Translations under genes and position numbers: made by a program
The notes under the pieces: model-generated
What the model was told of the DNA's origin: nothing
The model's database searches: none
The model's input: only the letters and a program-made list of their open reading frames with translations
Source of the DNA: a virus
Lineage: Duplodnaviria; Heunggongvirae; Uroviricota; Caudoviricetes
IMG/VR virus record: IMGVR_UViG_3300022758_000169
Length of the DNA stretch: 39,612 nt
Strand: one strand, 5' to 3'
Shown here: piece by piece, positions 1-39,612 of the stretch
How positions within the stretch are numbered: the first letter of the stretch is position 1
Layout: every line of letters starts with the position of its first letter

Positions 1-357
1 TGGATATCACGCAGGCATTTGCTCACACCGACGATGTAGCAGAACATGGTGGTCAGCTCCGCCGCCGCGCCCGATACGTCGTGCCCGTCGTCCTGTAACT
101 GGTTCAGCAGATTCATCAGCAGTGAGTTCTCCGTCAGGCCGAGAACACCAGATGGGGAATGAATCAGGCTGCGGTAGCCGGGCTTCAGTGGGGCACTGTA
201 GGTTTTGTTCTCTATCTTCATCGCCTGCATTACTGCTGACGCCGTGGCGTTGGCTACCTGGTCGGCAACCATCTTTATGCGTTCTTCTTGCGGGAGCGAG
301 TTTTTTATGTAACTTCCGGTGCGGCGGATCTGAGGAAGAACCTCACCTGTAACCCAT
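1..357. repeat. inverted repeat, left copy (antirepressor C-terminal module); reverse complement of 39256..39612
   Basis: Direct comparison: window start tggatatcacgcaggca is the reverse complement of the window end; about 98 percent identity over 357 bp with roughly 8 mismatches. Confidence 0.9.
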
Positions 358-668
358 TTACGAAAGCGGTAGGGGATAGTGCCTGGTGTCACTGCGTCGC
401 GGCAGCGGAGGATCAGTGTGTAGAGGCCTGACTCGGAGATGATGTTGATCTCTTTTACTCGGCTGTCAAAAATTGCACGATGTTCATGCCCTATGTTGAA
501 CATAGACCTTTCATCATCATCCAGTTTTTCAAGTGCTTGGGTGACGTTTTGGATACGCAGCGCACTACAAACGTCTTGGGCTACAAACCATGGTTGGCCA
601 TCGATAATGATGGAACGGATAGGGTTAACAGATTCAAATTTGAAGATGGAAGTTTGAGCATTAGCCAT
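1..668 (-). CDS. antirepressor, BRO-N-type N-terminal domain plus shared C-terminal module; 3' end cut by window edge
   Basis: ATG at 668..666 preceded by GGAGAT; translation MANAQTSIFKFESVNPIRSIIIDGQPWFVAQDVCSAL...ISESGLYTLIL...FRKWVTGEVLPQIRRTGSY is a BRO-N-like pattern; reading frame open to the window start. Confidence 0.75.
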   Translation of the reverse strand, partial: MANAQTSIFKFESVNPIRSIIIDGQPWFVAQDVCSALRIQNVTQALEKLDDDERSMFNIGHEHRAIFDSRVKEINIISESGLYTLILRCRDAVTPGTIPYRFRKWVTGEVLPQIRRTGSYIKNSLPQEERIKMVADQVANATASAVMQAMKIENKTYSAPLKPGYRSLIHSPSGVLGLTENSLLMNLLNQLQDDGHDVSGAAAELTTMFCYIVGVSKCLRDI

Positions 669-823
669 GGTGGTTATCTCCACTTAGTGATTTTAATCAC
701 CACCGCAACGCCAATTACTGGTGGTGAACTGGACAAGGTTGGCGTACCGGCCTAAGTGGTACCGGCGTCCTTTCGGACCCCTGCCCAGCCCACCATAATT
801 CGGATATAGCTGTGCTTAACGCA

Positions 824-945
824 TAAAAAAACCACGTCTGGCGTGGTATGCGCCACTTAGTAACCCGGGACGCCAATCCCGGCACTGGATTTTGCCAGTG
901 CCCGATTACTATGGCACAAGAGGAGTGCGATGTAAATTTACCGAA
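824..945 (-). ncRNA. candidate structured antisense small RNA (c4-like), copy A
   Basis: Promoter TTGATT-N17-TATTAT on minus strand, predicted three-way-junction fold, hairpin loop UUGGCGU, terminator hairpin CCACG/CGTGG followed by U7; homologous to 38686..38806. Confidence 0.45.
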
Positions 946-952
946 AAGGTAA
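938..952. promoter_or_regulatory. operator-like palindrome TTACCGAAAAGGTAA
   Basis: TTACC-N5-GGTAA overlapping the predicted start of sRNA copy A. Confidence 0.5.
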
Positions 953-1099: not shown

Positions 1100-1498
1100 G
1101 TGCCATTCCACGGCGTAGAACTTTATGTTGTCAATCACAACGGCGAACCGTACACCCCAATGAAACCTATCGTTGAGGGAATGGGTCTAGACTGGAAATC
1201 TCAACATAAGAAGATTTCTCAACGCTTCTCGAAGGGTATGGTGGAAATCACCATACCTTCTGCCGGAGGGGTGCAAGCCATGATTTGTATGGCTTTACGA
1301 AAATTGGCAGCTTGGTTGAACAGCATCAGTCCAAACAAAGTCCGCCCTGAAATCCGCGATAAGGTAATCCAGTATCAGGAAGAGTGTGATGATGTGCTCT
1401 ACGAGTACTGGACTAAAGGCCATGTGGTTAACCCGCGCAAAGCTAAAAAGGTGTTGCCGGGTAAAATCACGACTGAACAGCAGGAGGTATACACTTAA
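1100..1498 (+). CDS. antirepressor-like protein (recalled P22 antirepressor N-terminal domain pattern)
   Basis: ORF with motif GEPY...EGMGLDWKSQHKKI; divergent from sRNA/antirepressor copy A. Domain assignment from memory. Confidence 0.45.
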   Translation: MPFHGVELYVVNHNGEPYTPMKPIVEGMGLDWKSQHKKISQRFSKGMVEITIPSAGGVQAMICMALRKLAAWLNSISPNKVRPEIRDKVIQYQEECDDVLYEYWTKGHVVNPRKAKKVLPGKITTEQQEVYT

Positions 1499-2107: not shown

Positions 2108-4771
2108 TTAACGCATCACCGGATCCACTTGGTTTATTAGTGGCGCAATCCAGAACAGGTTATTGCCGGGTATCAGGGTTCGGACATTATGCACAATACG
2201 ATCACCGGCATCACCATTCAACACTCCTGAGGTCACATCAATGATGCTATCCGCAAGACCAAATGACGGTCCGAATAGAGATCCTACGAATCCACGACTG
2301 GCATACCTGGACTGTGTGCCAGTGCCAAATAAAGCCCCCAGCCCAACAGCACCACCAGTCGCCTTTTCAGCCATGTTGTTATATTCCATCAATGGCCCAA
2401 GAATACCGGATCTATCTATACCCTCAAGCACCAGCTTCTCTGGTGACCAGTCAACATTTTTCCCTTTCGATGCTTCTTTAAGCGCATAGACCAGTGAGCC
2501 AAGAGCAATCTGAAATGCAGTGCCATAATAAAATTGCGCAGTTCCTTCCTGTAACCCACCAAGTAGCGCACGGTTGTATGAAGCCGTTGTGAATGATTTA
2601 AACTGAAATATCGTTCGCCCCATTGGAGTACTCGCCCATAAAGGTGTGTCACCAATACCGGGGGTGATGATAGTGTTATTAACGTCTTTCAGAACCGCTG
2701 ACTGGAATACTCCGGCAACGTACTGATCGTCCCATTTATCAAAGTTACCAATGTGCCATCCATCAATTACCTCACCATGTTTCTCGAACTCACTGCGAAT
2801 ACGCGCAGCCATATTGTCGTTGATACCGAGTTTTGCCATGCGACGTGCAGAAAACGCACCGGACAAAATACCGTCTGACGTGAGCATTCCGTTCATGGAT
2901 TTGTTTATGTCATTAAATCGATCCATGAGTGTCAGCTTGCCGAAGGCATCAGTAATTCGCTCCATTCCTGCTTCGACTGCTGTTGTCCTGGAAGAACTGT
3001 CAACAAGATCACCAATTGCACGAGAACGTGAATGTAGTACAGCTTCCAATCCAATCCCCATCTTCAACATATCTTCTTTGCTGGCCTTAAATGCCGGTGA
3101 TTGGGATATCTGAGAAGCATAGCCTTTCATGGTGTTACGGAAACCATTAACCATAACCCCTCTGGCCAGATCTGGAATAGCTGATACTGTCATTCCACCG
3201 AGTTTGGTCGTGAAGTTCACATCCCGCAGAAAAGCGCCAGCACGAACAAAAAACGAAGACGGATCATCAGGCATCCCATATGTACCAACAAGACGATCGC
3301 GTAATGCTGTTATGTCTCTGAGATCATTTGCTCTTGATTTTGAAAGTCTGGACTGTTCTTTCCGTAATTCCTTTTCGTACTTTCGCATTAATGAATCGAG
3401 TTTACCCTGAGGAACAACTTCACCATTGCTCTCATAACGTGCTTTCAGATTTGCCACACTTTCGTCATATTTCGCCTTTATTTTTTCAGGCACTTCCCGT
3501 AACAGACTGTCATATTCGTCCTCAATTAATTGCAGACGCTCTGTCATAGTTCGTTTGCCAAATGTTCTCGTCAACTCAATTTCTGCTGCCGCTTCACGGA
3601 TATGACGTTGTAGAACGTAATTCACATCACTTTCGAGATAATCCCTGATAAGACTATCAGGCACATTTAATGTTCTTTCTTTCGTACTACCTGCGGCTTT
3701 TACAGAAAATACGCTGACAAAATCCTGTGGAACCTTAGCACCAGTAATTTTATTAATTACGATATCCGCTGCAATTTCAGCATCCTCAGGATCCAGTGTT
3801 TTATTGCCTCTCGACCACCAGTCAACCAAAATACGTCGAAATTTATCGCGTTCACTGATTATTTTTCCAACTTTATATATACGTGGGAAATAGCTTGCCT
3901 GGCCTAATGCTTTCAGTTCTTCATCTGGAGGCAATAAACCAAGCTTTTGCATTTCAACCTTCACCCGATTTAATACAGTTCGCATCGCCTGCGCCGTTTC
4001 CTGAACAACAGGATTAGCATGCACATCACCGCTTCGCATAGCATTCCCAACCTGCTGACGAAATGAATCAAAACTCATGTCACCACCATCAGCTTTATAC
4101 TTTGCGTATGCCTGTTTATTTCCGACAACAACAGCAGCTTCTTCACGCTGCCATCCACGTGTACGGGTTTCTACAGCTACCGGTGTTTCAATCCCCCTTT
4201 CATTTCCTTTAAGGGTGAAATTATTTTCGGCTAACTCCAGCGTTGTTTTTCGCACTGTCTTGGACGGAGACTCCATTAACCTTGTCAAAGGAGTAAGATA
4301 GCTCCCTGCTTTCCATGCAGCCTTTCCAACCACCCCACCGGAAACAGGGGTTAAATCATCCAGAGTCGCTGTATCAATTTTCATAGCACCAACACTACCA
4401 CCATCAGAAAGCGAAGCGGCAGCCCTGTCAGTCGCTGATGTAATGCTCATATTATCAAGAGCATCAGCAACCTCACGCGTGGCTGCAGCCCGGACGGATG
4501 GCGAAAGCGCAACACCAGCACTGGCAAACACGCCGCTCATCATCGCACCCGCTGCAATGTGAGCGGCACTTTCACCCCATGAGCGTGTTATTTGCTGATT
4601 ATTCAGCACAACCTCGCTTAATGCTGTACCGGCTGCACCAATCGCAATCTGTGAGCCAATACGCGCCAGTGCCCCTCCTTGAGCACCGGGGATAAACATT
4701 GACGCAACAGTAACCGGATCCATTCCCGCAGCAATACTGGCAAGGGTTCCAACTACGCCAGCATCAGACAA
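2108..4771 (-). CDS. large internal virion / ejection protein (887 aa)
   Basis: Long ORF at the distal end of the virion operon, Gly/Ala-rich N-terminus; position analogous to T7-like internal core proteins. Confidence 0.55.
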   Translation of the reverse strand: MSDAGVVGTLASIAAGMDPVTVASMFIPGAQGGALARIGSQIAIGAAGTALSEVVLNNQQITRSWGESAAHIAAGAMMSGVFASAGVALSPSVRAAATREVADALDNMSITSATDRAAASLSDGGSVGAMKIDTATLDDLTPVSGGVVGKAAWKAGSYLTPLTRLMESPSKTVRKTTLELAENNFTLKGNERGIETPVAVETRTRGWQREEAAVVVGNKQAYAKYKADGGDMSFDSFRQQVGNAMRSGDVHANPVVQETAQAMRTVLNRVKVEMQKLGLLPPDEELKALGQASYFPRIYKVGKIISERDKFRRILVDWWSRGNKTLDPEDAEIAADIVINKITGAKVPQDFVSVFSVKAAGSTKERTLNVPDSLIRDYLESDVNYVLQRHIREAAAEIELTRTFGKRTMTERLQLIEDEYDSLLREVPEKIKAKYDESVANLKARYESNGEVVPQGKLDSLMRKYEKELRKEQSRLSKSRANDLRDITALRDRLVGTYGMPDDPSSFFVRAGAFLRDVNFTTKLGGMTVSAIPDLARGVMVNGFRNTMKGYASQISQSPAFKASKEDMLKMGIGLEAVLHSRSRAIGDLVDSSSRTTAVEAGMERITDAFGKLTLMDRFNDINKSMNGMLTSDGILSGAFSARRMAKLGINDNMAARIRSEFEKHGEVIDGWHIGNFDKWDDQYVAGVFQSAVLKDVNNTIITPGIGDTPLWASTPMGRTIFQFKSFTTASYNRALLGGLQEGTAQFYYGTAFQIALGSLVYALKEASKGKNVDWSPEKLVLEGIDRSGILGPLMEYNNMAEKATGGAVGLGALFGTGTQSRYASRGFVGSLFGPSFGLADSIIDVTSGVLNGDAGDRIVHNVRTLIPGNNLFWIAPLINQVDPVMR

Positions 4772-4797
4772 TAAACGTCTGTCTTCATTTTCATCAT

Positions 4798-5127
4798 CTA
4801 TCTGCTGCTTAATCCACGCCGTTTCCTCTGGCGATCGGGAATCTGCAAATTTCGCCCCCAGTATTCATAACCGTGCAACTCATTTTTATCAGCATATGGG
4901 TTATAACCTTCGACCGGTTCAAACTGTCTGGCAGGACGGAAAAAACCAGCCAGAATATTGTTCTGTCGTATTGCTGCGGCAAGCAATGAAGGCTCTTTGG
5001 GACGAGGTTCAGGGTTCTTACCTTCTGGCGGATGCACATCAAAACTCTGTTCATCAGGTTCAGGAATGGCGAGACCAGCAGAAATAAATCCGTTATTGTT
5101 TGATTCAGATACAGGATAGAACGGCAT
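4798..5127 (-). CDS. small virion-operon protein, translationally coupled
   Basis: ATG overlaps the upstream stop in TAATG at 5129..5125; 109-aa Pro-rich ORF. Confidence 0.4.
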   Translation of the reverse strand: MPFYPVSESNNNGFISAGLAIPEPDEQSFDVHPPEGKNPEPRPKEPSLLAAAIRQNNILAGFFRPARQFEPVEGYNPYADKNELHGYEYWGRNLQIPDRQRKRRGLSSR

Positions 5128-7835: not shown

Positions 7836-8194
7836 CAGTAACCTCCTATTTTGAATCGGGAGTCAGAATTCATAAAACCTGAGTTAGATAACATTGGCGT
7901 TCCACCACCAGATGCACTTCCTTTAGAGAACGGACTCCACGTCCCACCAAACATCTGGTACGCACCGTATGCCTTCAGAGGCGCAGTGAGCAATGTTGTT
8001 GCTGCTCCCACATTCCCCTGTTTACGGGCTGAACTGGCTTCTGCTTTATAGTTGGCAGCCTGAACCTGATAACCGTAAGCCTCGCGTTGCGCGTTATTCA
8101 CCGTCGTCAGCGAATCAAGAGCGCCAAACTGAGCAGTGTCACCAAATATATCCAGCGCGTTACCTGTAGATAAATCGGCGCCGGTCGCCCCCAT
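7835..8194 (-). CDS. virion-operon protein; possibly the C-terminal part of a frameshifted gene
   Basis: 119-aa ORF; its frame stays open upstream to about 8272 and overlaps a 47-aa ORF (8265..8408) that starts in TAATG after the upstream gene. Confidence 0.4.
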   Translation of the reverse strand: MGATGADLSTGNALDIFGDTAQFGALDSLTTVNNAQREAYGYQVQAANYKAEASSARKQGNVGAATTLLTAPLKAYGAYQMFGGTWSPFSKGSASGGGTPMLSNSGFMNSDSRFKIGGY

Positions 8195-8407
8195 TGTCGC
8201 CGCCTGTGTACCAAGCCGCTGTCGGGTCTCTCTGCGCCGTTGCTCAGCTTCAGCGTTACCCTGTTTATTGCATCATTGCCTGAGCTGTGGCTATATCTGC
8301 GTTCGCTTCTGCAACCTTCGAGGCATACCTTCCCTGTTGGTACTGGGTGTATGCCTGAATGCCACTCATGGCGAGCATTGCGCCACCAGCAATAACCGGA
8401 TCGCACA

Positions 8408-8872
8408 TTATTTTCTCTCCATGTGAAATCTGTGGAAATTAAGACCAAGAGCACCATAAGGCGCGGCTTCTTCAAGCCTGAATCCAAGCCAGTGCAGCCA
8501 TGCTTTGGCAACATGGTTTCGCTCGTCGACGTAGTTTTCCAGGCGCGGATAAACTGCCAGCATCTGCTGCAATACAGGGCGGCAGTGGCGAAGAAATGTC
8601 TTCTGATATTTTTCAATACGGCTGGTCCCGACCAGCCAGGGCGTACCATTGCCACCGATCATTGACGCCGGAGATACACCAAACATGGTTACCAGTTCTC
8701 CGTTCGCGAACCCTGACCAGGCCATAGTCGCAGTGCGAAGACCAACACGCAGCGCATCTTCGGTAGTCATCAGCGATACCGCATACAGTTCGTCAATATC
8801 AGCCTGACGAACATCCGGCAAAATCATCTGAAGATGCTCTTCGGTAGCGGGAATAATTCGAACATCGATCAT
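8408..8872 (-). CDS. virion-operon protein (154 aa)
   Basis: ORF between the tail tube gene and the internal protein genes. Confidence 0.45.
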   Translation of the reverse strand: MIDVRIIPATEEHLQMILPDVRQADIDELYAVSLMTTEDALRVGLRTATMAWSGFANGELVTMFGVSPASMIGGNGTPWLVGTSRIEKYQKTFLRHCRPVLQQMLAVYPRLENYVDERNHVAKAWLHWLGFRLEEAAPYGALGLNFHRFHMERK

Positions 8873-26274: not shown

Positions 26275-27092
26275 AACCGGGAATTTATTTCGACATCAGC
26301 AATGAGGACTACCACGCCGGTGACGGCGTGAGTAAGTCGCAACTGGACATGGTTGCCAAGAATCCGGCGCTTCTTAAATGGGTTCAGGCAGCACCAGAAG
26401 ACGAAGAGAAAAAGTCTGCACTGGATATGGGAACCGCATTGCACTGCCTGCTTCTGGAGCCTGGAGAGTTCGACAAACGCTTCATTGTTTCACCGAAATT
26501 CGATCGTCGGACGAAACAAGGTAAAGCTGACGAAGAAGCATTTCTTCGTGATGTAGCGGATATGGGGATTACGGTACTTGATGCCGAGCAGTGGCGGAAA
26601 CTGGAGCTGATGCGTGATAGCGCAATGGCTCACCCGGCGGCACGCTGGATGCTGGAAGCACCTGGTTACTGCGAAGCATCAATGTACTGGAATGATGAAG
26701 AGACTGGTGAGTTGTGCCGCATTCGTCCAGACAAATGGCTGAACGAGCACAACGTGATCGTCGACGTGAAAAAGGTTGCAGATATGGACCGTTTTGCACG
26801 CCACATCGAGGAATTCCGCTACCACGTGCAGGACGCAATGTACCGCGAAGGCGCAATGAGGGTTACTGGTCAGCCGCATGGTTTTTTCTTTCTTGCCGTG
26901 AGCGAAAGCATTGATTGTGGTCGGTATCCGGTACGCGTGTTCGAGCTGGATGCGCCGGATGTCGATGCCGGGCACGCTCTGTTCCGCCGGGATCTGAATA
27001 CCTATCACGAATGCCGCATCAACGATGAGTGGGGCGGAGTGGAAATTATTAAACGCCCTGACTGGGCACGTAAACAGGATATGTACGTATGA
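26271..27092 (+). CDS. RecE-like exonuclease (PD-(D/E)XK)
   Basis: Strong similarity to the recalled RecE catalytic domain: PGIYFDISNEDYHAG...GTALHCLLLEP...RIRPDK...VIVDVKK...YHVQDA. Confidence 0.75.
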   Translation: MKPGIYFDISNEDYHAGDGVSKSQLDMVAKNPALLKWVQAAPEDEEKKSALDMGTALHCLLLEPGEFDKRFIVSPKFDRRTKQGKADEEAFLRDVADMGITVLDAEQWRKLELMRDSAMAHPAARWMLEAPGYCEASMYWNDEETGELCRIRPDKWLNEHNVIVDVKKVADMDRFARHIEEFRYHVQDAMYREGAMRVTGQPHGFFFLAVSESIDCGRYPVRVFELDAPDVDAGHALFRRDLNTYHECRINDEWGGVEIIKRPDWARKQDMYV

Positions 27093-27463
27093 GCAATGAT
27101 ATCGCAATCACATCACAACCAGGCGCAACTGTAGGTACTGCTGCGGCAATCTTCAGCCCGGAGGGCATGAATCAACTGGTGCGTTTCGCGGAGTTGATGT
27201 CACAAAGCAAAGCGACTGTACCGAAACATCTTGAAGGCAAACCTGCCGATTGTCTGGCGGTGACCATGCAGGCGGCACAGTGGGGAATGAACCCTTTCGC
27301 CGTGGCGCAGAAAACGCATGTGGTAAACGGAACGTTAGGCTACGAAGCACAGTTGGTAAACGCGGTCGTATCCTCTTCCAGCCTGCTAGCGACACGCCTG
27401 AATTATCGCTGGAGCGGTGACTGGTCGAATGTTAACGGCAAACAGATAAATCACCGAATCTGA
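27089..27463 (+). CDS. single-strand annealing protein (Bet/RecT-like), N-terminal fragment
   Basis: Motif WGMNPF; ends in a stop while the adjacent frame continues the homology. Confidence 0.5.
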   Translation: MSNDIAITSQPGATVGTAAAIFSPEGMNQLVRFAELMSQSKATVPKHLEGKPADCLAVTMQAAQWGMNPFAVAQKTHVVNGTLGYEAQLVNAVVSSSSLLATRLNYRWSGDWSNVNGKQINHRI

Positions 27464-27471
27464 CGGTAACT

Positions 27472-27969
27472 GTGTCAGCAGTTCTTAAAGGAGAAGCAGA
27501 ACCCCGTGAGCTTACCATCAGTATGGCGCAAGCCGGAGTGCGTAACTCTCCATTGTGGGAACAGGATCCGCGCCAGCAGCTTGCCTATCTTTGCACGAAA
27601 CGATGGGCTCGCCTGCACGCTCCTGATGTGCTTCTCGGTGTTTACACCCCTGACGAATTACAGGAAACGGCACCGCGCGTTGAGCGAGACATTACTCCGC
27701 AAACGACTACTGCTGCGGGAATGAACAGTCTGATCAACGCTAAACCAGTGAAAAAGCATGATGAGCAAACGCGTAAAGCGGATAGCCGTGATCCAGAAGA
27801 AATGCTGATGGCCTTTACCAGCGCAGCGATGAATTACAGCACTGTCTCCGAACTGGATAAGGCTTACAAATACATTGCACAAAAACTTTCAGATGATGAC
27901 GAACTGCTGGCAAAAGCCACCGACGTTTACAGCGTTCGTCGGGAAGAATTAAACGAAACATCTATGTAA
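27472..27969 (+). CDS. single-strand annealing protein (Bet/RecT-like), C-terminal fragment in a different frame
   Basis: Contains ERDITP and surrounding similarity to recalled lambda Bet; frame is open upstream to 27436, overlapping the previous ORF. Confidence 0.5.
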   Translation: MSAVLKGEAEPRELTISMAQAGVRNSPLWEQDPRQQLAYLCTKRWARLHAPDVLLGVYTPDELQETAPRVERDITPQTTTAAGMNSLINAKPVKKHDEQTRKADSRDPEEMLMAFTSAAMNYSTVSELDKAYKYIAQKLSDDDELLAKATDVYSVRREELNETSM

Positions 27970-29564: not shown

Positions 29565-29888
29565 AATCACGCCTGACGAATCGCGATTATCTCGCTATTG
29601 GTATTGCAGAGATTGCTGGACTCAATGGCGCATGATTTGACAATGCCGCCAGAGCTATCGCATACTGACCGCACTAGAAAACAAACAGCGGTCATCCGCA
29701 CCCGATAGCTTTGCGGCTTTTTTATGCCTGCAATCTGGCATAGTCACATCCGTACAAAGGTCGGGTGGAGAGGCGTAATACAACACCCGAAAGGGGAATA
29801 TGCCCGGAGCTACTGTTTGTGCTCTAGTTGACACCCGATCACCAGCTACTAACTGGTTTTCGTAACTAAAAACAAACAGGAGGTCATC

Positions 29889-30545
29889 ATGACCAGTCAA
29901 CTCATCCCCGTATTCAACGGCACTATATCTAACGAAACAGCCCTACTTTGTAATGCCCGCGATCTGCACGCTTTTTTAGGTGTTAAAAAGGTGTTTGCAG
30001 CATGGATTACAAATCGCATATCAGAATACGAATTCATTGAAAATCAAGACTATATTTTGCTTTCCAATTTGGGAAAGCAAACATCTGGTAGAGGCGGCCA
30101 CAACCGCAAAGAGTACCACCTCACCCTTGATACAGCCAAAGAGCTGGCGATGGTCGAGCGTAACGAAAAAGGTCGCCAGGTGCGACGCTACTTCATTGAA
30201 TGCGAGAAACGTTTAAGACAACAAGAAACAAAAGTGGAGAAGGTCTTGTCAGGCTTCATGCCCGCCATTATGGAGGCGATCAAGCTGGAAGACAAAAAAG
30301 AATACAGTGCCCCACTGAAGCCCGGCTACCGCAGCCTGATTCACTCGCCGTCTGGTGTTCTCGGCCTGACGGAGCACTCACTGCTGATGAATCTGCTGAA
30401 CCAGTTACAGGACGACGGGCACGACGTATCGGGCGCGGCGGCGGAGCTGACCACCATGTTCTGCTACATCGTCGGTGTGAGCAAATGCCTGCGTGATATC
30501 CAGACTCACGCGGAGTACATCAACGACAAGGCAGGGTTCTTCTGA
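29889..30545 (+). CDS. antirepressor (AntA/KilA-N-like N-terminal domain plus shared C-terminal module)
   Basis: Strong SD AGGAGG; C-terminal 68 aa nearly identical at DNA level to the two terminal copies. Confidence 0.7.
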
Positions 30546-30578: not shown

Positions 30579-31829
30579 TTATTCCCCCGCTATCCACTTC
30601 TCAAACTTCGACGGGGAGAACGGAATCAGATCTGTATGCTCCCCGTTAATCCAGGAATCAATCATATCGGCCCACTGCTGCAACATGTAGGCGCGCTGTC
30701 TGGCGTATTCCGCTTTGTTATATACGGCGCGCACACCTTTCTGCTCATGTGCCAGAGCCTTTTCAATCCAGTCTGAAGGATAACCAGCCTCATGCAACAA
30801 CGTACTGGCTGTACGGCGCATATCATGTACAGTGAAGTCCTGAATATGCTCACCATCTTCATTTATTATTTTCACCGTTCTGTCGATCAGAGAGTTCAGC
30901 GCGGCATTAGATAATGGCTTCCGGAAATTGTAACGACCAGGAACCAGATATTCACTTCCACCAGCGCACATCTGCAACCCGACCAATATATCCTGTGCCT
31001 GTTTAGGCAGGTAAATAACGTGCGCCCGGCTTCCCTTCATGCGGTCTGGAGGAATTGTCCATGTCCATTTTTTAAAATCTATTTCATCCCACGTTGCATT
31101 GGTGAATTCGCCCTTACGAACCATAGTGATAAGCACCAGTTTTAAAGCCATTTTCATAGTGCCCATAGCACCAATGGCATCCAGCGTACGGAAGAACAGG
31201 CCAATTTCTTCTGGTGTCAGTGTTCGCTCTCGTGGTTTAAATATGGCGATAGACGAAGGTTTAATGTCAGCCGCAGGATTAAACAAACCATGACCACGGT
31301 CATTGGCGTGACGGTATACGCTGCTGATGATCTCCCTTGCCTGTACTGCTGTTGCCCGACCACCGCGTTCGACAATCCGGTCACACAAATCACGAACCAT
31401 CGATGTGGTAATTTCAGCCATCATTTTGTTGCCAAGAACCGGAAGTATGTCACGGTCGATCACTGCCTGCTTCATTGCGCGGGTACTTTCAGCCAGGATG
31501 ACGTGTTTCATATAACTGTCGGTATGTACCGCAAACGTCTCGGCACCACGAATCTTTTTGATACCGTCACGTTTAGCCGCAGCCGGCGACTGGCCTGCTT
31601 TAAGCAGCTTCTTTGCAGCAATCAGTTCTTCTCGCGCTTCTGCCAGGCTGATACCGTCACGCCCATACTGCCCGATTACCAGTGTTTCGCGGCGACCGTT
31701 GATACGGTAGTCATAGCGAAACGAGGCCGTGCCTGACGTAAGCACAGCTACATACAGCCCGTCACGATCGGAGACCTTGTACAGTTTGTCCTGCGGCTTG
31801 AGGTTTTTTAATTTTGTATCGGTAAGCAC
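30579..31829 (-). CDS. int: tyrosine integrase
   Basis: 416-aa ORF; N-terminus MLTDTKLKNLKPQDKLYKVSDRDGLY; catalytic motifs HDMRRT and AVYNKAEY near the C-terminus; apparent GTG start. Confidence 0.85.
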   Translation of the reverse strand: MLTDTKLKNLKPQDKLYKVSDRDGLYVAVLTSGTASFRYDYRINGRRETLVIGQYGRDGISLAEAREELIAAKKLLKAGQSPAAAKRDGIKKIRGAETFAVHTDSYMKHVILAESTRAMKQAVIDRDILPVLGNKMMAEITTSMVRDLCDRIVERGGRATAVQAREIISSVYRHANDRGHGLFNPAADIKPSSIAIFKPRERTLTPEEIGLFFRTLDAIGAMGTMKMALKLVLITMVRKGEFTNATWDEIDFKKWTWTIPPDRMKGSRAHVIYLPKQAQDILVGLQMCAGGSEYLVPGRYNFRKPLSNAALNSLIDRTVKIINEDGEHIQDFTVHDMRRTASTLLHEAGYPSDWIEKALAHEQKGVRAVYNKAEYARQRAYMLQQWADMIDSWINGEHTDLIPFSPSKFEKWIAGE

Positions 31830-34217: not shown

Positions 34218-34244
34218 CCCGCAATATTTTGCGGGCTTTTTTTT
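34218..34244 (+). terminator. plus-strand intrinsic terminator with no annotated upstream plus-strand gene
   Basis: CCCGCAA-uauu-UUGCGGG followed by U8; overlaps the tailspike stop codon on the other strand. Confidence 0.45.
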
Positions 34245-37200
34245 AACGTTCTTCCAGAGACTGAACCCGCTCTTTTATCTTATCCATTTCTCTGCGCTGC
34301 CATGCTGCCTCGATATAGAATAAGAGATCAGGTCTGACCCCCCATCTAGATCCTGCTGGCGTTATTTCAACGCGCTCAATGATGTCTTCTATTACCATCA
34401 CTGGATTATCATCCTCATCAACAATGATGCTCCCGTCATTATCAGTCAGCGGCATTTCCCTTTGGCCAGTAATGACGTCATCATATACTGCGGGATAATC
34501 GTCATAGCAAAGAAAGGCATAGCGGCATGTTGTGCTTTCTTCTTCCATGAGTCCGTGAGAAATAAGAACATCACGAAGTTGCTGCGCGATTACACCATGA
34601 TGTATCCTCGCCCCTTCTTCCCCCTTTATAGCGACAGCGTTCAGCCATTTATAAGCGATATACCTGACGTCACCCCAGGCATCCAGCAATGCTTCGTCAG
34701 GAGAGACCGGCTCTGTCTTTAATGTTCCGTCACTGGTAACCACAGGATTGGAGCCAAGATAAACTGTCGAGAACCTGTTTCCCGGACCACCAAGAGCATT
34801 TACATTATCAAGATAAGGTTTAACATCTCCGTTCTCAAAAAGATGTTCGAGTGCGTTATATACCGCGCGACGTGGAGTACTGCTTCCGGAACCATGCAAC
34901 GTTATCATTGCACCATCTGCTGAAGACGTTGTTTCACCGCCGCTAACGATTAATCTCTGAGCGGTAACATCATCAGACGGTACTTTCTTCGCAATAATGG
35001 CGTAATTACCCTCAAGTTTGACTTCCGCGCGAACTTGTCCTGATGTACCTGCATGGACAGTCAGTGACTGGACGGCAACATCATCTGTGAAATCAACGGG
35101 TACAGGAACCGTCCTCACGCCTGACGTCGACATAAAAGTAGGAAGCGTTCTGTTAGGAGTGGCTCCGTAGACAAAATCCCTTGAAACAAATTCTTCCTGT
35201 TTAATTTTCACCCTGAAACAATACAAATCAGCCGGGTGACCATCGTGAACATAAGGATATTTTCTGTTGTTATCCCCTATGCTCCATGGGTTTAGAAAGT
35301 CTTCCCCACCGAAAATGTAGTACAGCCAGTTGTCTTTGATACAAACTGAACCAACACCAACCGCAGAGTTAACTATTCCGCCCTGATAAATCTGATCAGT
35401 AACATTAACCCACTCTACATTATCCAGACTCCACTCATTGACGTTAACTCTGGTCATAAATGTTCTTGGATAATTTCCTGCATAACGGTTATCAGGTTCT
35501 CCTCCTTCCCACTCACCAAATGCGCGCTCACTGCCAAAAATAATCAGCTCATCGCCAACTTTGGCAAAAGGAAGGTTTGAGTGATGAACATTATTTGGGA
35601 AGCGAAGAGAATTCCATGATGTACCTAAATCAGAGCTTCTGTGCAATGAACTACCGGGTTGAGTACTTAATGTCCCCCTGGTCGTCAGATACAGAATGCC
35701 ATCATAATATTTTACACATGGCTCAGATGCATTCGCCTCATATTCTGCAGGTATGCGTCTGCGAACAAAGCTACCAGGAGAACCGAAAGCATCAGAGAAA
35801 TAGAGTATCCCAAGCTCGCGTGGACCAATATCACCATTATGGTAGCCAACAGCAAAACTGTTATCGCTAATCGTCGCAAAACTGTGAATCTCAGTAACAG
35901 GAGTGCTTCCGTCAACAAAAGAAGGAATAGTTCCAAGACTGGTTTTTCTCCATGGTGACGAGTGAAATGATGTACCAAAACTCCAGTATCTACCCTCGTT
36001 ATTCTGATCCACATCCTGGGTATTTTGCGTCGTAACTGTAAAAGTATTTTTATCAATAACAGTAGTCACCGTCATATTCCCGGTAACACCTGTAACACCA
36101 GAGTTTGAGAAGTTGACAAAATCACCAGCAAATAATCCGTGATCAGTAATGCGAATATAAGCGACTTGCTGATTTGCTGCTTTCGTTATACCACCATAAA
36201 CGCGAAGGCTGCGACTCATTGGGCGATCCCACAACTCTGCAACCTGCAGTTTATTTCCGCTCACGGTCCGCGTCTCAATTACAGCAAAAAGGCGATTTCT
36301 GACAACCCCCATACTCATGCAGTGATAGTTAACTGTGGGATAGTTTTCATGTAAATCTGTAAGCCATTCCGGCGTTGTCCAGGTCTTCCCGTCATCTCCT
36401 GAGCGAACCCATGCAACATGGAGGTTATTTACACCATGGCGGTCTCCAGCCATAAAAGGCGCATAGATGACATTGTCATATACAAACGTTTTATCCTGCG
36501 TCCAGGCGTTGTACCACGGTGTATCTGTAATTTTAAATAACTCTCCCTGGATAAAATCTTCAGAAGCATAAAAAAGAGGCTGACCCGGTATTCTCTCAAA
36601 TAAAAAACGAGCATTTTTAAATCGACTGACATCCGGAAGAGTTGATACTTTAAAAGTAAGCCCTAATCCGTCAATTTTATAACCTGGAGATGAGGCTTCA
36701 AGGCACGCGCTTATTGCAGTGGAATCGTCATTTATACCATCACCAACAGCTCCAAAATCTTTGGGGCTAATAGCATCACGCATTTTATCCTGGAACGTTC
36801 GGTACACAGCCCCAGAACCATACTGAATAAACCAACCAAAACCACCAACAACCCCGGCGATTGCAGCATCGACATAATTACGCATTGAGCGATTATTTAC
36901 AGCGTCCTGCTCAAATGATGGATCTGCAAGGTTAGAAATTTTGTTTTGCTTTGCATCGTAATATTTTGCAAGCAAAGATGGTTTCATCAATGCACGTCTG
37001 AACCACCCAAAACATTGCTGGATCAGCATCGTCAGGTAGTCAAAGGCATCTTCATGCACTTCGGGGAAAAATTTTCCCTGATTGCGAAGGTCTGTCTCCT
37101 GCACTACATCAAGCACACGATCTATCGTAATTCGCCATCCAGTAGCAAGCGGAGACGGAAGAACCACAGAACCGCCACTATAAGTGCCCGCCCCAGTTAC

Positions 37201-37362
37201 CGTATAACCGGTATCCAGAACCAATTCTGTTACGTTTCCGTTCAGGTCAGACACCTGAACAACCAGGTCTGATTTTCTGAAAATTCGAAAAGTATACGGA
37301 AACGATGTCGTAACGCCGTTACCGGTGTATTCGTTGTGGTCAACTTCGGTTGAGACCGTCAT
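34243..37362 (-). CDS. tailspike with Asp-box (BNR) motifs and C-terminal self-cleaving chaperone-like domain
   Basis: 1039 aa; N-terminus MTVSTEVDHNEYTGNGVTTSFPYTF; Asp-boxes SGDDGKTW and SDLGTSW; C-terminal VVTSDGTLK with the Ser codon at 34732..34734. Confidence 0.8.
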   Translation of the reverse strand: MTVSTEVDHNEYTGNGVTTSFPYTFRIFRKSDLVVQVSDLNGNVTELVLDTGYTVTGAGTYSGGSVVLPSPLATGWRITIDRVLDVVQETDLRNQGKFFPEVHEDAFDYLTMLIQQCFGWFRRALMKPSLLAKYYDAKQNKISNLADPSFEQDAVNNRSMRNYVDAAIAGVVGGFGWFIQYGSGAVYRTFQDKMRDAISPKDFGAVGDGINDDSTAISACLEASSPGYKIDGLGLTFKVSTLPDVSRFKNARFLFERIPGQPLFYASEDFIQGELFKITDTPWYNAWTQDKTFVYDNVIYAPFMAGDRHGVNNLHVAWVRSGDDGKTWTTPEWLTDLHENYPTVNYHCMSMGVVRNRLFAVIETRTVSGNKLQVAELWDRPMSRSLRVYGGITKAANQQVAYIRITDHGLFAGDFVNFSNSGVTGVTGNMTVTTVIDKNTFTVTTQNTQDVDQNNEGRYWSFGTSFHSSPWRKTSLGTIPSFVDGSTPVTEIHSFATISDNSFAVGYHNGDIGPRELGILYFSDAFGSPGSFVRRRIPAEYEANASEPCVKYYDGILYLTTRGTLSTQPGSSLHRSSDLGTSWNSLRFPNNVHHSNLPFAKVGDELIIFGSERAFGEWEGGEPDNRYAGNYPRTFMTRVNVNEWSLDNVEWVNVTDQIYQGGIVNSAVGVGSVCIKDNWLYYIFGGEDFLNPWSIGDNNRKYPYVHDGHPADLYCFRVKIKQEEFVSRDFVYGATPNRTLPTFMSTSGVRTVPVPVDFTDDVAVQSLTVHAGTSGQVRAEVKLEGNYAIIAKKVPSDDVTAQRLIVSGGETTSSADGAMITLHGSGSSTPRRAVYNALEHLFENGDVKPYLDNVNALGGPGNRFSTVYLGSNPVVTSDGTLKTEPVSPDEALLDAWGDVRYIAYKWLNAVAIKGEEGARIHHGVIAQQLRDVLISHGLMEEESTTCRYAFLCYDDYPAVYDDVITGQREMPLTDNDGSIIVDEDDNPVMVIEDIIERVEITPAGSRWGVRPDLLFYIEAAWQRREMDKIKERVQSLEER

Positions 37363-37481: not shown

Positions 37482-37556
37482 TTTGCAAAACGTGCTGGAT
37501 AGCAAACAAATTATTTGATACTGTATAAATATCAGTTATTGCATGGAGAAGATAAG

Positions 37557-37814
37557 ATGCAGCAGTATCACTATCCACTGGAAGACGGATTTACCGAAAG
37601 GATTCACACGCCGGGAGGCGTCAGGTCACTGGTGGAGGGATCGCACTTGATGAAATTACTCCGGGATCTCGATAAGGATGGATTTAATGTCGATGGCCCA
37701 CTTGCCGAACTGACTGCACTGATTAACTACGTCACCAGCTCACAGATGTCTATGCAGGATCTGCAAACACATCTCGACTATTGTGCCGAACAATTACGAA
37801 AACAAACCCGGTAA
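37557..37814 (+). CDS. hypothetical protein (85 aa)
   Basis: SD GGAGAAG then ATG; convergent with the gene at 37837..38565. Confidence 0.45.
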   Translation: MQQYHYPLEDGFTERIHTPGGVRSLVEGSHLMKLLRDLDKDGFNVDGPLAELTALINYVTSSQMSMQDLQTHLDYCAEQLRKQTR

Positions 37815-37820
37815 ATTTAA

Positions 37821-37838
37821 AGGCCGCAAGAGCGGCCT
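37821..37838. terminator. hairpin between convergent genes
   Basis: AGGCCGC-aaga-GCGGCCT. Confidence 0.35.
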
Positions 37839-38565
37839 ATCGTTTCGCTTTGTGCTCGTCCCAGCACGTTTTGCACCATGCCATTAAGCCGTCCGCATTT
37901 TGATTATTAGGGTAAAAGCTGGTCCGTTTTCTGCGGACATTACAAATTGGGCACCACTTCATATGGCGTGTATTCTTTGGGCCATCGAGACACCTTGCAC
38001 ACCACTTAGTCAATCCATCTGGATTTTTTGACGATTTCCGGAATTTGTCATATGGAAGGTTTATTCTGCATCGCAAACACTGCTTGCGGCCACTTGAAAC
38101 TCTGTTAGCTGATTCTTCTTTTGGCGGCGATACAGAAGGTATTCTTGCTGGCTCTGATACTGCCTGAGGTGCTTTTTTAGATGACTGAGACGATATGTCA
38201 TCACCAGGGAATCTTCCATGATATGCCGGACGCGTTGACACTCCAGGTGGAAGCTCAGCTGTAAACGGCTTTGGCTGAATCAGTTGCCTCTCTTTTGCTA
38301 ACTCCTGCTGTTTATAATATGTCTGGATTACCGCACTATCATAAGCAGGAGGTACGGAAATATCAGGCGCGTTACCTCCAGTTTTTTGAAAATGAGTAGA
38401 TGTGTGTTCTATCACCTGTGTACGACTAATCGTTACCTCCCCATCTTCGGTCTTTATCGTTTTGTTCTGATTAACGACCGTACGATCAGAGATCTTAGTC
38501 TTGTTCTGGTTGATAACGTAAATAATCACCGCAACCACACCAACAACTATCCAGAAAACTTCCAT
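37837..38565 (-). CDS. membrane-anchored protein with C-terminal double Cys4 repeats (moron)
   Basis: N-terminus MEVFWIVVGVVAVIIYVI is a predicted TM helix; C-terminal repeats CLRC...WCARC and CPIC...WCKTC; promoter, leader and start shared with the ORF at 1559. Confidence 0.55.
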   Translation of the reverse strand: MEVFWIVVGVVAVIIYVINQNKTKISDRTVVNQNKTIKTEDGEVTISRTQVIEHTSTHFQKTGGNAPDISVPPAYDSAVIQTYYKQQELAKERQLIQPKPFTAELPPGVSTRPAYHGRFPGDDISSQSSKKAPQAVSEPARIPSVSPPKEESANRVSSGRKQCLRCRINLPYDKFRKSSKNPDGLTKWCARCLDGPKNTRHMKWCPICNVRRKRTSFYPNNQNADGLMAWCKTCWDEHKAKR

Positions 38566-38585
38566 TGCTTTTCCTCACAATAACA

Positions 38586-38600
38586 TTACCTTAAAGGTAA
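38586..38600. promoter_or_regulatory. operator-like palindrome TTACCTTAAAGGTAA
   Basis: Upstream of the minus-strand gene at 38565; mirror of the site at 1524..1538. Confidence 0.5.
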
Positions 38601-38678
38601 TATCTTGCTTTCAGGTGATCAAGCGTTAAACGCAATCAACCAAATACGGTTGATTTTAATATTTCTTCGCGTTTATCA

Positions 38679-38693
38679 TTACCTTTGCGGTAA
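38679..38693. promoter_or_regulatory. operator-like palindrome TTACCTTTGCGGTAA overlapping the sRNA promoter
   Basis: Promoter TTGATT (38651..38656) - N17 - TATCAT (38674..38679); the site covers the predicted start. Confidence 0.5.
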
Positions 38694-38806
38694 ATTTACA
38701 TCGCACTCCTCTTGTGCCATAGTAATCGGGCACTGGCAAAATCCAGTGCCGGGATTGGTCTCCCGGATTACTACAGAGGCACATATGCCGCATAAGCGGT
38801 TTTTTT
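38686..38806 (+). ncRNA. candidate structured antisense small RNA (c4-like), copy B
   Basis: Predicted fold: outer stem 38713..38718/38778..38783, stem 38721..38727/38766..38772, hairpin 38729..38750, hairpin 38751..38764 with loop UUGGUC, then terminator hairpin plus U7 (38800..38806). Confidence 0.5.
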
Positions 38807-38960
38807 ATGTGTAAAGCGCACCTATTCTATGGTGGGCTGTGTGGGGGCACCGAAAGGTGCGCCGGGTTCCTTTGTAGCCGGTAAGACCAACTCTGCACAG
38901 TTCACCACCATCTGATTGGTCTCAGCGGTGGTGATTAACCTAACTACAAAGGTGATCGCC

Positions 38961-39612
38961 ATGAATACCAAACCTTCCATCTTTTCCTTTGAGTTATCCT
39001 GCCAGATCCGTATGTTCATGATTGACGGAGAACCTTGGTTTGTCACCAAAGATGTGTGCAATGCTTTGAATATTGATGTTACACAAGCGAGAAAACTTGA
39101 TAAAAAAGGGCTGGAACAAAAAGGGGGTCTGTATTCAATACAGACCCCTGGTGGAATACAAGAACTATCCATCGTTTCAGATCAGGTCTCTACATCCTTA
39201 TTCTGCGTTGCAAAGAGGCAATGACTGAGGGAACGAGAGCATTCAGATTTCTTGAATGGGTTACAGGTGAGGTTCTTCCTCAGATCCGCCGCACCGGAAG
39301 TTACATTAAAAACTCGCTCCCGCAGGAAGAACGCATAAAGATGGTTGCCGACCAGGTAGCCAACGCCACGGCGTCAGCAGTAATGCAGGCGATGAAGATA
39401 GAGAACAAAACCTACAGTGCCCCGCTGAAGCCCGGCTACCGCAGCCTGATTCATTCGCCGTCGGGTGTTCTCGGCCTGACGGAGCACTCACTGCTGATGA
39501 ATCTGCTGAACCAGTTACAGGACGACGGGCACGACGTATCGGGCGCGGCGGCGGAGCTGACCACCATGTTCTGCTACATCGTCGGTGTGAGCAAATGCCT
39601 GCGTGATATCCA
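38961..39612 (+). pseudogene. antirepressor (BRO-N plus shared C-terminal module), frame-disrupted by a 1-nt deletion near 39182; 3' end cut by window edge
   Basis: BRO-N frame (MNTKPSIFSF...) stops at 39224; homology continues in the +2 frame (SGLYILILRCKEAMTEGTRAFRFLEWVTGEV...); copy A has GAGTCAGGC where this copy has GATCAGGT. Confidence 0.55.
39256..39612. repeat. inverted repeat, right copy; a third direct copy of the last ~200 bp lies at 30302..30501
   Basis: Direct comparison with 1..357 and with 30302..30501 (about 3 mismatches over 200 bp). Confidence 0.9.

What the first reader, a model, noticed from the sequence alone, without database searches (positions are those of the whole stretch)
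38961..39612. Antirepressor copy B is disrupted by a single-base deletion
Copy B reads GATCAGGT where intact copy A has GAGTCAGGC, which is the conserved ISESGLY region of the BRO-N domain. The BRO-N frame therefore terminates at 39224 and the shared C-terminal module continues in the +2 frame, with an ATG at 39221 overlapping the stop. This is either a sequencing indel at a TT dinucleotide, a decayed gene, or a genuinely split gene.
Basis: seen in the sequence. Interest (0 to 1): 0.45.

Follow-up and report, generated by a model that had tools for sequence, protein, structure and literature searches.

The report
Frameshifted antirepressor copy: likely sequencing error
One of two mirror-image antirepressor genes in this E. 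coli K1 phage contig really is broken by a missing base, but the contig carries about a dozen similar one-base slips that also break essential genes, so the break is most likely a sequencing or assembly error.

Summary
Copy B (38961-39612, +) loses its BRO-N frame at 39180/39181, stops at TGA 39222-39224, and its C-terminal module continues in the +2 frame. All three indels are private: 119 of 119 complete E. coli genomes, phage EC.W1-9 and 33 IMG/VR contigs carry one intact 230-aa gene, and exact-pattern scans of three public collections find none of the variants.

The break is not specific to this gene. The window has 14 private 1-2-nt indels, clustered, lying in sequence otherwise almost identical to relatives. 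They also frameshift a 1006-aa ejection protein, a gp14-like core protein, a Cro-like gene and RecT. Good-quality relatives show 0-1 such indels. The window is a whole phage-form (attP) contig whose ends are a perfect 127-nt inverted repeat, the mark of a k=127 assembly break.

Most likely (about 0.7) the frameshift is a sequencing or assembly error. A real pseudogene (about 0.2) or a functional split gene (under 0.05) is less likely. Interest is low. Side finds: SPC32H-type Rep/Ant switch, Ant-like domains in four genes, isrK/C4 leaders.

The parts
38961..39224 (+). Copy B, 5' part: ATG to TGA, 87 codons. It holds the first ~73 residues of a BRO-N domain followed by 13 out-of-frame residues.
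   Evidence: Pfam Bro-N scores 24.6 bits, just under the 25.6 cut-off, and matches profile positions 2-40 of 96 only. tblastn with the intact orthologue switches frame at 39182.
39182..39612 (+). Copy B, 3' part in the +2 frame: the rest of BRO-N, a linker and an Ant-like C-terminal domain. It is open to the window end, and its first ATG is at 39221.
   Evidence: It is 99.3% identical to residues 74-216 of WP_001093358.1. In that intact orthologue, residues 149-225 match the SPC32H Ant chain 5D50_E at E=1.6e-13.
39180..39181 (+). Site of the frame-breaking 1-nt deletion (GAA to GA within the ...SIVSESGLY... motif).
   Evidence: with 37 of 37 relatives agreeing. 119 of 119 complete E. coli genomes have the longer version. 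The deleted 33-mer is absent from the viral, metagenome and genome collections, while the intact 34-mer is in 33 IMG/VR contigs.
39108..39128 (+). Two further private insertions: +G in the GGG run at 39108-39110, and +GT at 39127-39128. They sum to +3 and recode 5 residues.
   Evidence: The patterns are absent from public collections.
39124..39148 (.). An 11-bp perfect palindrome, GGGGTCTGTAT-TCA-ATACAGACCCC. In relatives the left arm lacks the T, so the inserted T perfects it.
   Evidence: (hairpin scan), compared with the alignment.
38730..38912 (+). Leader of copy B: isrK-like RNA (38730-38806) and C4 antisense-like RNA (38825-38912).
   Evidence: Rfam gathering-threshold matches at 74.7 and 78.6 bits.
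3..668 (-). Copy A: an intact BRO-N / Ant-like gene, inverted relative to copy B. Its 3' end lies beyond the window start.
   Evidence: Pfam Bro-N scores 71.6 bits. No private indels in it.
717..901 (-). Leader of copy A: C4-like RNA (717-800) and isrK-like RNA (825-901).
1..127 (.). Left arm of the perfect 127-nt terminal inverted repeat. Its partner is 39486-39612. This is the assembly break point.
   Evidence: exactly 127 identical bases, then the first mismatch. The wider repeat, 1-431 against 39182-39612, is 92% complementary.
29889..30545 (+). Third gene with the same C-terminal module: an AntA-type N-domain fused to the Ant-like domain.
   Evidence: Pfam AntA scores 91.8 bits. Its last 149 nt up to 30502 are identical to the window's last 149 nt, the end of copy B.
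37557..37814 (+). Stand-alone 85-aa antirepressor, the orthologue of SPC32H Ant.
   Evidence: 5D50_E at E=4e-47; phrog_450.

Best explanation
Copy B is a normal isrK/C4-led gene. It encodes a BRO-N domain fused to an antirepressor (Ant-like) domain, in an epsilon15/SPC32H-like temperate phage of E. coli K1. The frameshift recorded in this contig is most likely not in the phage DNA. It is one of about 14 small insertion/deletion errors introduced by indel-prone sequencing and a k=127 de Bruijn assembly, concentrated in a few poorly supported, mostly AT-rich stretches.

Shown: the indels exist, are private to this contig, are clustered, and break essential genes. Inferred: that they are technical. 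In the real phage the gene would then encode a 230-aa protein like WP_001093358.1. By homology of its C-terminal domain to SPC32H Ant, that protein would bind the Rep repressor.
For: 1. All three copy-B indels are private. 119 of 119 complete E. coli genomes have the 179-nt version with zero substitutions over 181 nt. 37 of 37 fetched relatives agree. Exact-pattern scans of the viral, metagenome and genome collections find none of the three variants.
2. Indels match or outnumber substitutions locally. Region 38566-39400 differs from its best relative by 2 mismatches and 3 gap openings. Region 24840-25060 is identical to relatives except for four 1-nt insertions. The RecT kilobase is identical to L041 except for one deleted A.
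3. The excess is contig-wide. There are 13 private indels by a strict criterion, plus one at 4854, and none is a multiple of 3. The same test gives 0-1 in phage ZX5, FDAARGOS_1301, A_5, A3176 and A357.
4. They frameshift five genes: the 1006-aa ejection protein (G6 to G5), the gp14-like core protein (two deletions), the Cro-like gene, RecT and copy B. Yet the contig is in phage (attP) form, with integrase next to the lysis genes and colinear with circular phage ZX5. Virion or replicating DNA should not carry lethal frameshifts.
5. The indels are clustered: 6 adjacent pairs lie under 200 nt apart (P=3e-5 for uniform placement), and most sit in runs of 1-4 bases rather than the longest runs. They are enriched in low-GC stretches. 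This fits local low coverage or quality.
6. The ends are a perfect 127-nt inverted repeat, so this is a raw SPAdes-type contig.
7. An identical tailspike protein is on record in 242 blocks of public assemblies. The frameshifted BRO-N (87 or 102 aa) and RecT (124 aa) products are on record in none, and the BRO-N neighbours shown next to that tailspike are 228-231 aa, i.e. full length.
Against: No reads are available, so the call is indirect. The +1 and +2 insertions in copy B restore the frame between them, which could reflect selection, though two random indels sum to a multiple of 3 about one time in three. The inserted T perfects a quasi-palindrome, a known natural template-switch mutation signature. 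Copy B is redundant with copy A, copy C and the 85-aa Ant, so real decay would be tolerated. Most events are in short runs, which is not the classic long-homopolymer profile of 454 or Ion Torrent. The sequencing platform is unknown. The window has no near-identical (>99.5%) relative across its length, so a private lineage cannot be excluded.
Confidence: 0.7

Rival explanations
1. The deletion is real. Copy B is a recently inactivated pseudogene, tolerated because the phage has an intact inverted paralogue (copy A), an AntA-type fusion (copy C) and the stand-alone SPC32H-type Ant. The other frameshifts would then mean the element is a decaying, defective phage.
For: Redundancy is shown: four genes carry the Ant-like domain. 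A truncated P22_AR_N antirepressor remnant lies nearby at 1100-1498, annotated as a partial pseudogene in E. coli A_5, so antirepressor decay does happen at this locus. The quasi-palindrome-perfecting T and the frame-restoring +1/+2 pair look like natural events.
Against: There is no decay downstream of the shift: the C-terminal part is 99.3% identical to the intact orthologue. The allele occurs in no other sequence, including the 119 complete genomes with this gene and three large collections. A defective element with broken core, ejection and cro genes is hard to reconcile with an attP-form contig. Indels match or outnumber substitutions locally, unlike ordinary mutation spectra.
Confidence: 0.22
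2. The deletion is real and the gene works as a split gene. The 87-codon upstream ORF ends in TGA, which overlaps ATG 39221 as ATGA. Termination-reinitiation there would produce a 144-aa protein carrying the whole Ant-like domain without a complete BRO-N domain, functionally like the 85-aa stand-alone Ant.
For: The ATGA overlap and an AAGAGG motif just upstream of the ATG are in the sequence. An Ant domain alone is a complete antirepressor in SPC32H (5D50_E is 86 aa; Rep-Ant mechanism summarised in PMC9638917). AUGA coupling is documented for the isrK-orf45-anrP antirepressor operon of Gifsy-1 (PMC4825925).
Against: The ATG is simply internal Met-87 of the intact protein, and the TGA exists only because of the shift. 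No relative has this arrangement. The AAGAGG ends only 2 nt before the ATG, which is poor spacing. The reading also depends on the deletion being real.
Confidence: 0.04
3. Programmed -1 ribosomal frameshifting joins the two frames into one protein.
For: None beyond the two overlapping frames.
Against: There is no X XXY YYZ slippery heptamer between 39181 and 39222 (sequence). Any shift downstream of the deletion would garble the conserved ESGLYILILRC segment. All relatives encode the protein in one frame.
Confidence: 0.01

Closest known systems
BRO-N domain-containing protein WP_001093358.1 (E. coli epsilon15-like prophages; also WYA78248.1 of phage EC.W1-9)
   Same: It has the same position between the 242-aa Cys-rich protein gene and the small downstream genes, and the same leader. 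DNA identity is 97.5-98.7% over 713 nt, and the C-terminal part is 99.3% identical at protein level.
   Different: The window copy has +G, +GT and -A, so it cannot encode the 230-aa protein in one frame. The window copy is also cut by the contig end.
Antirepressor Ant of Salmonella phage SPC32H (PDB 5D50 chain E; Kim & Ryu 2013, cited through PMC7380047 and PMC9638917)
   Same: In the intact orthologue of copy B, C-terminal residues 149-225 are homologous to it (E=1.6e-13). The window also has the SPC32H-type Rep (5D50_A, E=4.5e-42) and an 85-aa Ant orthologue (E=4e-47).
   Different: SPC32H Ant is an 86-aa stand-alone protein. Here the domain is fused behind a BRO-N domain and a ~60-residue linker. 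Binding to Rep is inferred, not tested.
P1/P7 immI (c4 antisense RNA controlling ant) and Gifsy-1 isrK-orf45-anrP
   Same: Rfam isrK and C4 matches above gathering score lie directly upstream of both BRO-N copies. This is the RNA-controlled antirepressor arrangement described for Gifsy-1 (PMC4825925).
   Different: No orf45-like leader ORF ending on the ant start codon was found. The downstream protein is a BRO-N/Ant fusion. The regulation was not tested.
Convergent BRO-N gene pairs in E. coli A_5 (NZ_CP195580.1) and CP115343.1 prophages
   Same: They have two inverted BRO-N/Ant genes between the tailspike module and the ejection-protein module, flanking a 1.1-1.3 kb spacer. This explains the inverted-repeat contig ends.
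   Different: In A_5 both copies are intact, and the copy-A-type N-domain sits on the tailspike side, swapped relative to the window. The window's spacer is not assembled.

Membership tests
BRO-N domain proteins (Pfam PF02498) | Match to the Bro-N profile at or above the gathering score (25.6 bits) over most of the 96-position profile | tested here: not met
   As written in the window, the 87-aa product scores 24.6 bits and covers profile positions 2-40 only. The intact orthologue scores 51.4 bits over positions 2-96, and copy A scores 71.6 bits. The gene is a family member by descent, but its product as written is not a complete domain.
BRO-N domain proteins (Pfam PF02498) | Conserved (I/V)SE(S/P)GLY core motif in one reading frame | tested here: not met
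   The frame breaks inside the motif, giving SIVSD|Q then SGLYILILRC in the +2 frame. It is intact in copy A and in all relatives.
SPC32H-type antirepressor (Ant) domain | Significant sequence homology to the solved Ant chain 5D50_E | tested here: met
   E=1.6e-13 for residues 149-225 of the intact copy-B orthologue. The window's +2 frame is 99.3% identical to that protein over residues 74-216, as far as the window runs.
SPC32H-type antirepressor (Ant) domain | Binds and disassembles the cognate Rep tetramer | not testable with these tools
   A Rep homologue is present at 25083-25667. The interaction was not tested.
C4 / isrK RNA-controlled antirepressor modules | Rfam C4 (RF01695) and isrK (RF01394) matches above gathering score immediately 5' of the gene on the same strand | tested here: met
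   Upstream of copy B, C4 scores 78.6 bits and isrK 74.7 bits. Upstream of copy A they score 66.0 and 67.7 bits.
Programmed ribosomal frameshift genes | Slippery site at the frame junction, and the two-frame arrangement conserved in relatives | tested here: not met
   No slippery heptamer is present. All relatives are single-frame.
Genuine pseudogene | The disruption is supported by reads or by independent sequences of the same lineage | tested here: inconclusive
   No other sequence carries it. Reads are not available.
Sequencing/assembly indel artefact | A contig-wide excess of private, non-triplet indels over the level in good-quality relatives, in otherwise identical sequence, hitting essential genes | tested here: met
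   14 private indels against 0-1 in relatives. Five genes are frameshifted. Local identity is otherwise 99-100%.

The most novel reading that the evidence does not exclude
The deletion is real, and the ATGA stop/start overlap at 39221-39224 lets ribosomes reinitiate. This would turn a BRO-N/Ant fusion into a free Ant-like antirepressor under isrK/C4 RNA control, caught in the act of domain fission. It would mirror the stand-alone 85-aa Ant encoded 1.4 kb away.
Probability: 0.04. Interest if true: 0.35.

Novelty: not a real feature. Interest (0 to 1): 0.08.

Why it matters
Mainly as quality control. An annotator would call copy B a pseudogene or two small genes, and would also mis-call a core protein, an ejection protein, Cro and RecT. 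All of these are most likely intact in the phage. It also shows that the contig's inverted ends are an assembly break inside a convergent pair of antirepressor genes, so about 1.2 kb of the genome is missing from the contig. If the frameshift were real it would still be an ordinary loss of a redundant paralogue. The locus itself is more informative than the frameshift: four Ant-domain genes, two of them behind isrK/C4 leaders, beside an SPC32H-type LexA-controlled Rep/Ant switch.

Tried and rejected
- I first took the direct repeat at 29889-30545 for 'copy A'. It is an AntA-type gene sharing only the C-terminal module.
- I looked for the frameshifted allele elsewhere. Exact-pattern scans of viral, metagenome and genome collections for the deletion and for both insertions found nothing. 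Exact-product look-ups for the 87-aa and 102-aa ORFs and the truncated RecT also found nothing.
- Mismatch-repair-deficient slippage as a natural cause is not favoured. Only 2 of 14 events are in runs of 6 or more, although the window has 50 such runs, and the events are spatially clustered.
- Programmed frameshifting is rejected: no slippery site and no conservation.
- I considered that the indels reflect selection on the lysis-lysogeny switch, since 9 of 14 fall in cro, the operators, the sequence just downstream of rep, the LexA box or the BRO-N gene. I rejected this as incoherent: a broken cro together with a broken LexA box, plus lethal virion-gene frameshifts. Low GC explains part of the enrichment.
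- I looked for an orf45-like coupled leader ORF upstream of the BRO-N genes and found none.
- The primary SPC32H paper (PMC3807360) is not held in the library, so it is cited through secondary sources.

Full report
**What is in the sequence**

The region 38961-39612 (+) starts with an ATG preceded by AGGTGA. It reads MNTKPSIFSF...ELSIVSDQVSTSLFCVAKRQ and stops at TGA 39222-39224. From 39182 the +2 frame is open to the window end. It reads SGLYILILRCKEAMTEGTRAFRFLEWVTGEVLPQIRRTG.... ATG 39221-39223 overlaps the TGA.

The string GATCAGGT is at 39180-39187. 'Copy A' is therefore the gene at 3-668 (-), which is open for 222 codons and contains NIISESGLYTLILRC. A DNA alignment of the two copies shows the single-base gap exactly there.

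**What the gene is**

- Copy A and the intact orthologue of copy B are BRO-N proteins: Pfam PF02498 at 71.6 and 51.4 bits against a cut-off of 25.6. PHROGs files them under anti-repressor Ant families.
- In the intact orthologue of copy B, C-terminal residues 149-225 are homologous to the solved antirepressor Ant of Salmonella phage SPC32H (5D50_E, E=1.6e-13).
- The window also encodes an 85-aa orthologue of that Ant at 37557-37814 (E=4e-47) and the matching repressor Rep at 25083-25667 (5D50_A, E=4.5e-42).
- A third gene, 29889-30545, joins an AntA domain to the same C-terminal module.
- Both BRO-N copies are preceded on their own strand by Rfam isrK and C4 antisense-RNA matches above the gathering scores. 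This is the RNA-controlled antirepressor layout known from P1 immI (my own knowledge) and from Gifsy-1 isrK-orf45-anrP (PMC4825925).
- In SPC32H-type phages a LexA-controlled Ant inactivates Rep by direct binding (PMC7380047; PMC9638917).

Copy B is therefore, by descent, an accessory antirepressor gene of an epsilon15/SPC32H-like (Uetakevirus-like) phage. The phage has an endosialidase tailspike at 34243-37362.

**Comparison with relatives**

- Phage EC.W1-9 and 118 complete E. coli genomes cover 80% or more of the 713-nt query at 97.5-98.7% identity. Where inspected, the gene is annotated as one 693-nt CDS of 230 aa, WP_001093358.1.
- The three-way alignment shows that the window differs by three indels within 75 nt: GG to GGG (39108-39110), GGGG to GGGGGT (39127-39128) and GAA to GA (39180/39181).
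- In a 181-nt query around them, all 119 complete genomes that have the segment give the same result: 179 nt, no substitutions, four gap columns.
- 37 of 37 fetched relatives agree.
- The first two indels add 3 nt and recode KKGWNKKGLYS to KKGLEQKGGLYS. The third breaks the frame. The lost base is an A of an AA pair, not a T.
- Exact-pattern scans found the deleted version in none of IMG/VR, the metagenome collection or the GTDB genomes. They found the intact version in 33 IMG/VR contigs, and the two insertion variants nowhere.
- The exact 87-aa and 102-aa products are not on record among public gene calls. The window's tailspike protein is on record, residue for residue, in 242 blocks, and the BRO-N neighbours shown beside it are 228-231 aa, i.e. 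full length.

**The contig as a whole**

- The first 127 nt are the exact reverse complement of the last 127 nt, and position 128 is the first mismatch. The wider repeat, 1-431 against 39182-39612, is 92% complementary. A perfect 127-mer at both ends is what a k=127 de Bruijn assembler leaves where two inverted copies collapse. So the window is a whole contig, and both BRO-N genes are truncated by the assembly.
- E. coli A_5 and CP115343.1 show the expected real structure: two convergent BRO-N genes around a 1.1-1.3 kb spacer.
- The contig is in phage form. The integrase gene (30579-31829) lies next to the lysis genes, as in the circular phage ZX5 record. In the FDAARGOS_1301 prophage they lie at opposite ends.

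**Private indels**

I compared the window with 40-odd related loci and kept only indels on which at least 90% of three or more covering relatives agree against the window. This gave 13 events, all 1-2 nt: 8260, 8275, 17316, 24861, 24978, 25010, 25033, 25705, 27439, 37532, 39108, 39127 and 39180. A 14th at 4854 (C6 to C5) is seen against all relatives of the same sequence type.

The same test applied to phage ZX5, FDAARGOS_1301, A_5, A3176 and A357 gives 0-1 events each.

tblastn with relatives' proteins switches frame in five genes:
- the 1006-aa ejection protein
- the gp14-like virion core protein
- the Cro-like protein
- RecT
- copy B

The surrounding sequence is otherwise almost identical to relatives:
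- The RecT kilobase matches L041 with 0 mismatches and 1 gap.
- The 221-nt cro/rep control region is identical except for four 1-nt insertions.
- Region 38566-39400 has 2 mismatches against 3 gap openings.

The events are clustered (P=3e-5), lie mostly in runs of 1-4 bases, and lean towards low-GC stretches.

**Interpretation**

An attP-form genome should not carry frameshifts in two virion genes and in cro. Indels that match or outnumber substitutions locally, that are private, and that cluster in a few stretches are what an indel-prone data set with local low coverage produces. I therefore put about 0.7 on a technical origin for the copy-B frameshift.

About 0.2 remains for a real, recent inactivation of a redundant paralogue. 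In its favour:
- the locus does hold a decayed P22_AR_N remnant at 1100-1498;
- the +1/+2 pair restores the frame;
- the inserted T perfects an 11-bp palindrome at 39124-39148, a natural template-switch signature.

A functional split through ATGA reinitiation is possible on paper, but no relative supports it. Programmed frameshifting is excluded by the lack of a slippery site and of conservation.

**Verdict**

The frameshift most probably is not a biological feature. The gene belongs to a common, already annotated family, and interest is low.

Noticed in passing
window 1-127 and 39486-39612: The contig ends are a perfect 127-nt inverted repeat, with a mismatch at position 128. This is a k=127 assembly break inside two convergent BRO-N/Ant genes. 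The spacer between them is missing from the contig; it is about 1.1-1.3 kb in E. coli A_5, where it holds a YafO-family toxin gene, and in CP115343.1.
   Followed up: yes
window 4854, 8260, 8275, 17316, 24861, 24978, 25010, 25033, 25705, 27439, 37532: Eleven further window-private 1-nt indels. They frameshift a 1006-aa ejection protein (2111-5127, -), a gp14-like core protein (7838-8408, -), a Cro-like gene (24697-24925, -) and RecT (27089-27966, +). Good-quality relatives have 0-1 such events.
   Followed up: yes
window 37519-37536: A LexA-box-like palindrome, TACTGTATAAATAT-CAGT, lies upstream of the 85-aa ant gene. 27 of 27 relatives have TACTGTATAAATATACAGT (CTG-N10-CAG). The window lacks one A, which would break the box if real.
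   Followed up: partly
window 37557-37814 (+) and 25083-25667 (+): Orthologues of the structurally solved SPC32H antirepressor Ant (5D50_E, E=4e-47) and its repressor Rep (5D50_A, E=4.5e-42). The phage therefore has an SPC32H-type switch.
   Followed up: yes
window 3-668 (-), 29889-30545 (+), 37557-37814 (+), 38961-39612 (+): Four genes carry the Ant-like (phrog_450) domain: alone, behind BRO-N (twice) and behind AntA. The stretch of copy C ending at 30502 is identical to the window's (copy B's) last 149 nt, which suggests gene conversion among the copies.
   Followed up: partly
window 717-901 (-), 38730-38912 (+), 29759-29848 (+): Rfam isrK plus C4 antisense-RNA matches lie upstream of both BRO-N copies, and an sRNA-Xcc1 match lies upstream of the AntA-type gene. 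Each accessory antirepressor gene has an RNA leader.
   Followed up: partly
window 39124-39148: An 11-bp perfect palindrome sits inside the BRO-N coding sequence, followed on the minus strand by CTTTTTG (terminator-like). Relatives have a one-base bulge, and the window's inserted T removes it.
   Followed up: partly
window 1-952 and 38638-39612, compared with L004 (E. coli A_5): In A_5 the copy-A-type N-domain with its leader sits on the tailspike side and the copy-B-type on the ejection-protein side, the reverse of the window. The N-domain cassettes appear to be exchanged between the two inverted sites through the conserved leader and C-terminal module.
   Followed up: partly
window 1100-1498 (+): A 132-aa ORF consisting only of a P22_AR_N antirepressor N-terminal domain (149.6 bits). 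The A_5 homologue is annotated as a partial pseudogene missing its C-terminus. It is a remnant of yet another antirepressor.
   Followed up: partly
window 37837-38565 (-): A 242-aa protein (phrog_6762, unknown function) with weak C-terminal matches to Cys-rich zinc-finger-type families (Stc1, endonuclease VII, HNH). It is conserved between ant and the BRO-N gene in many relatives.
   Followed up: no
window 24861-25705 and 37532-39180: Nine of the 14 private indels fall in immunity-related sequence: cro, the cro/rep operator region, downstream of rep, the LexA box and the BRO-N gene. Low GC explains part of this (P about 0.001 per event, 0.04 per cluster).
   Followed up: partly
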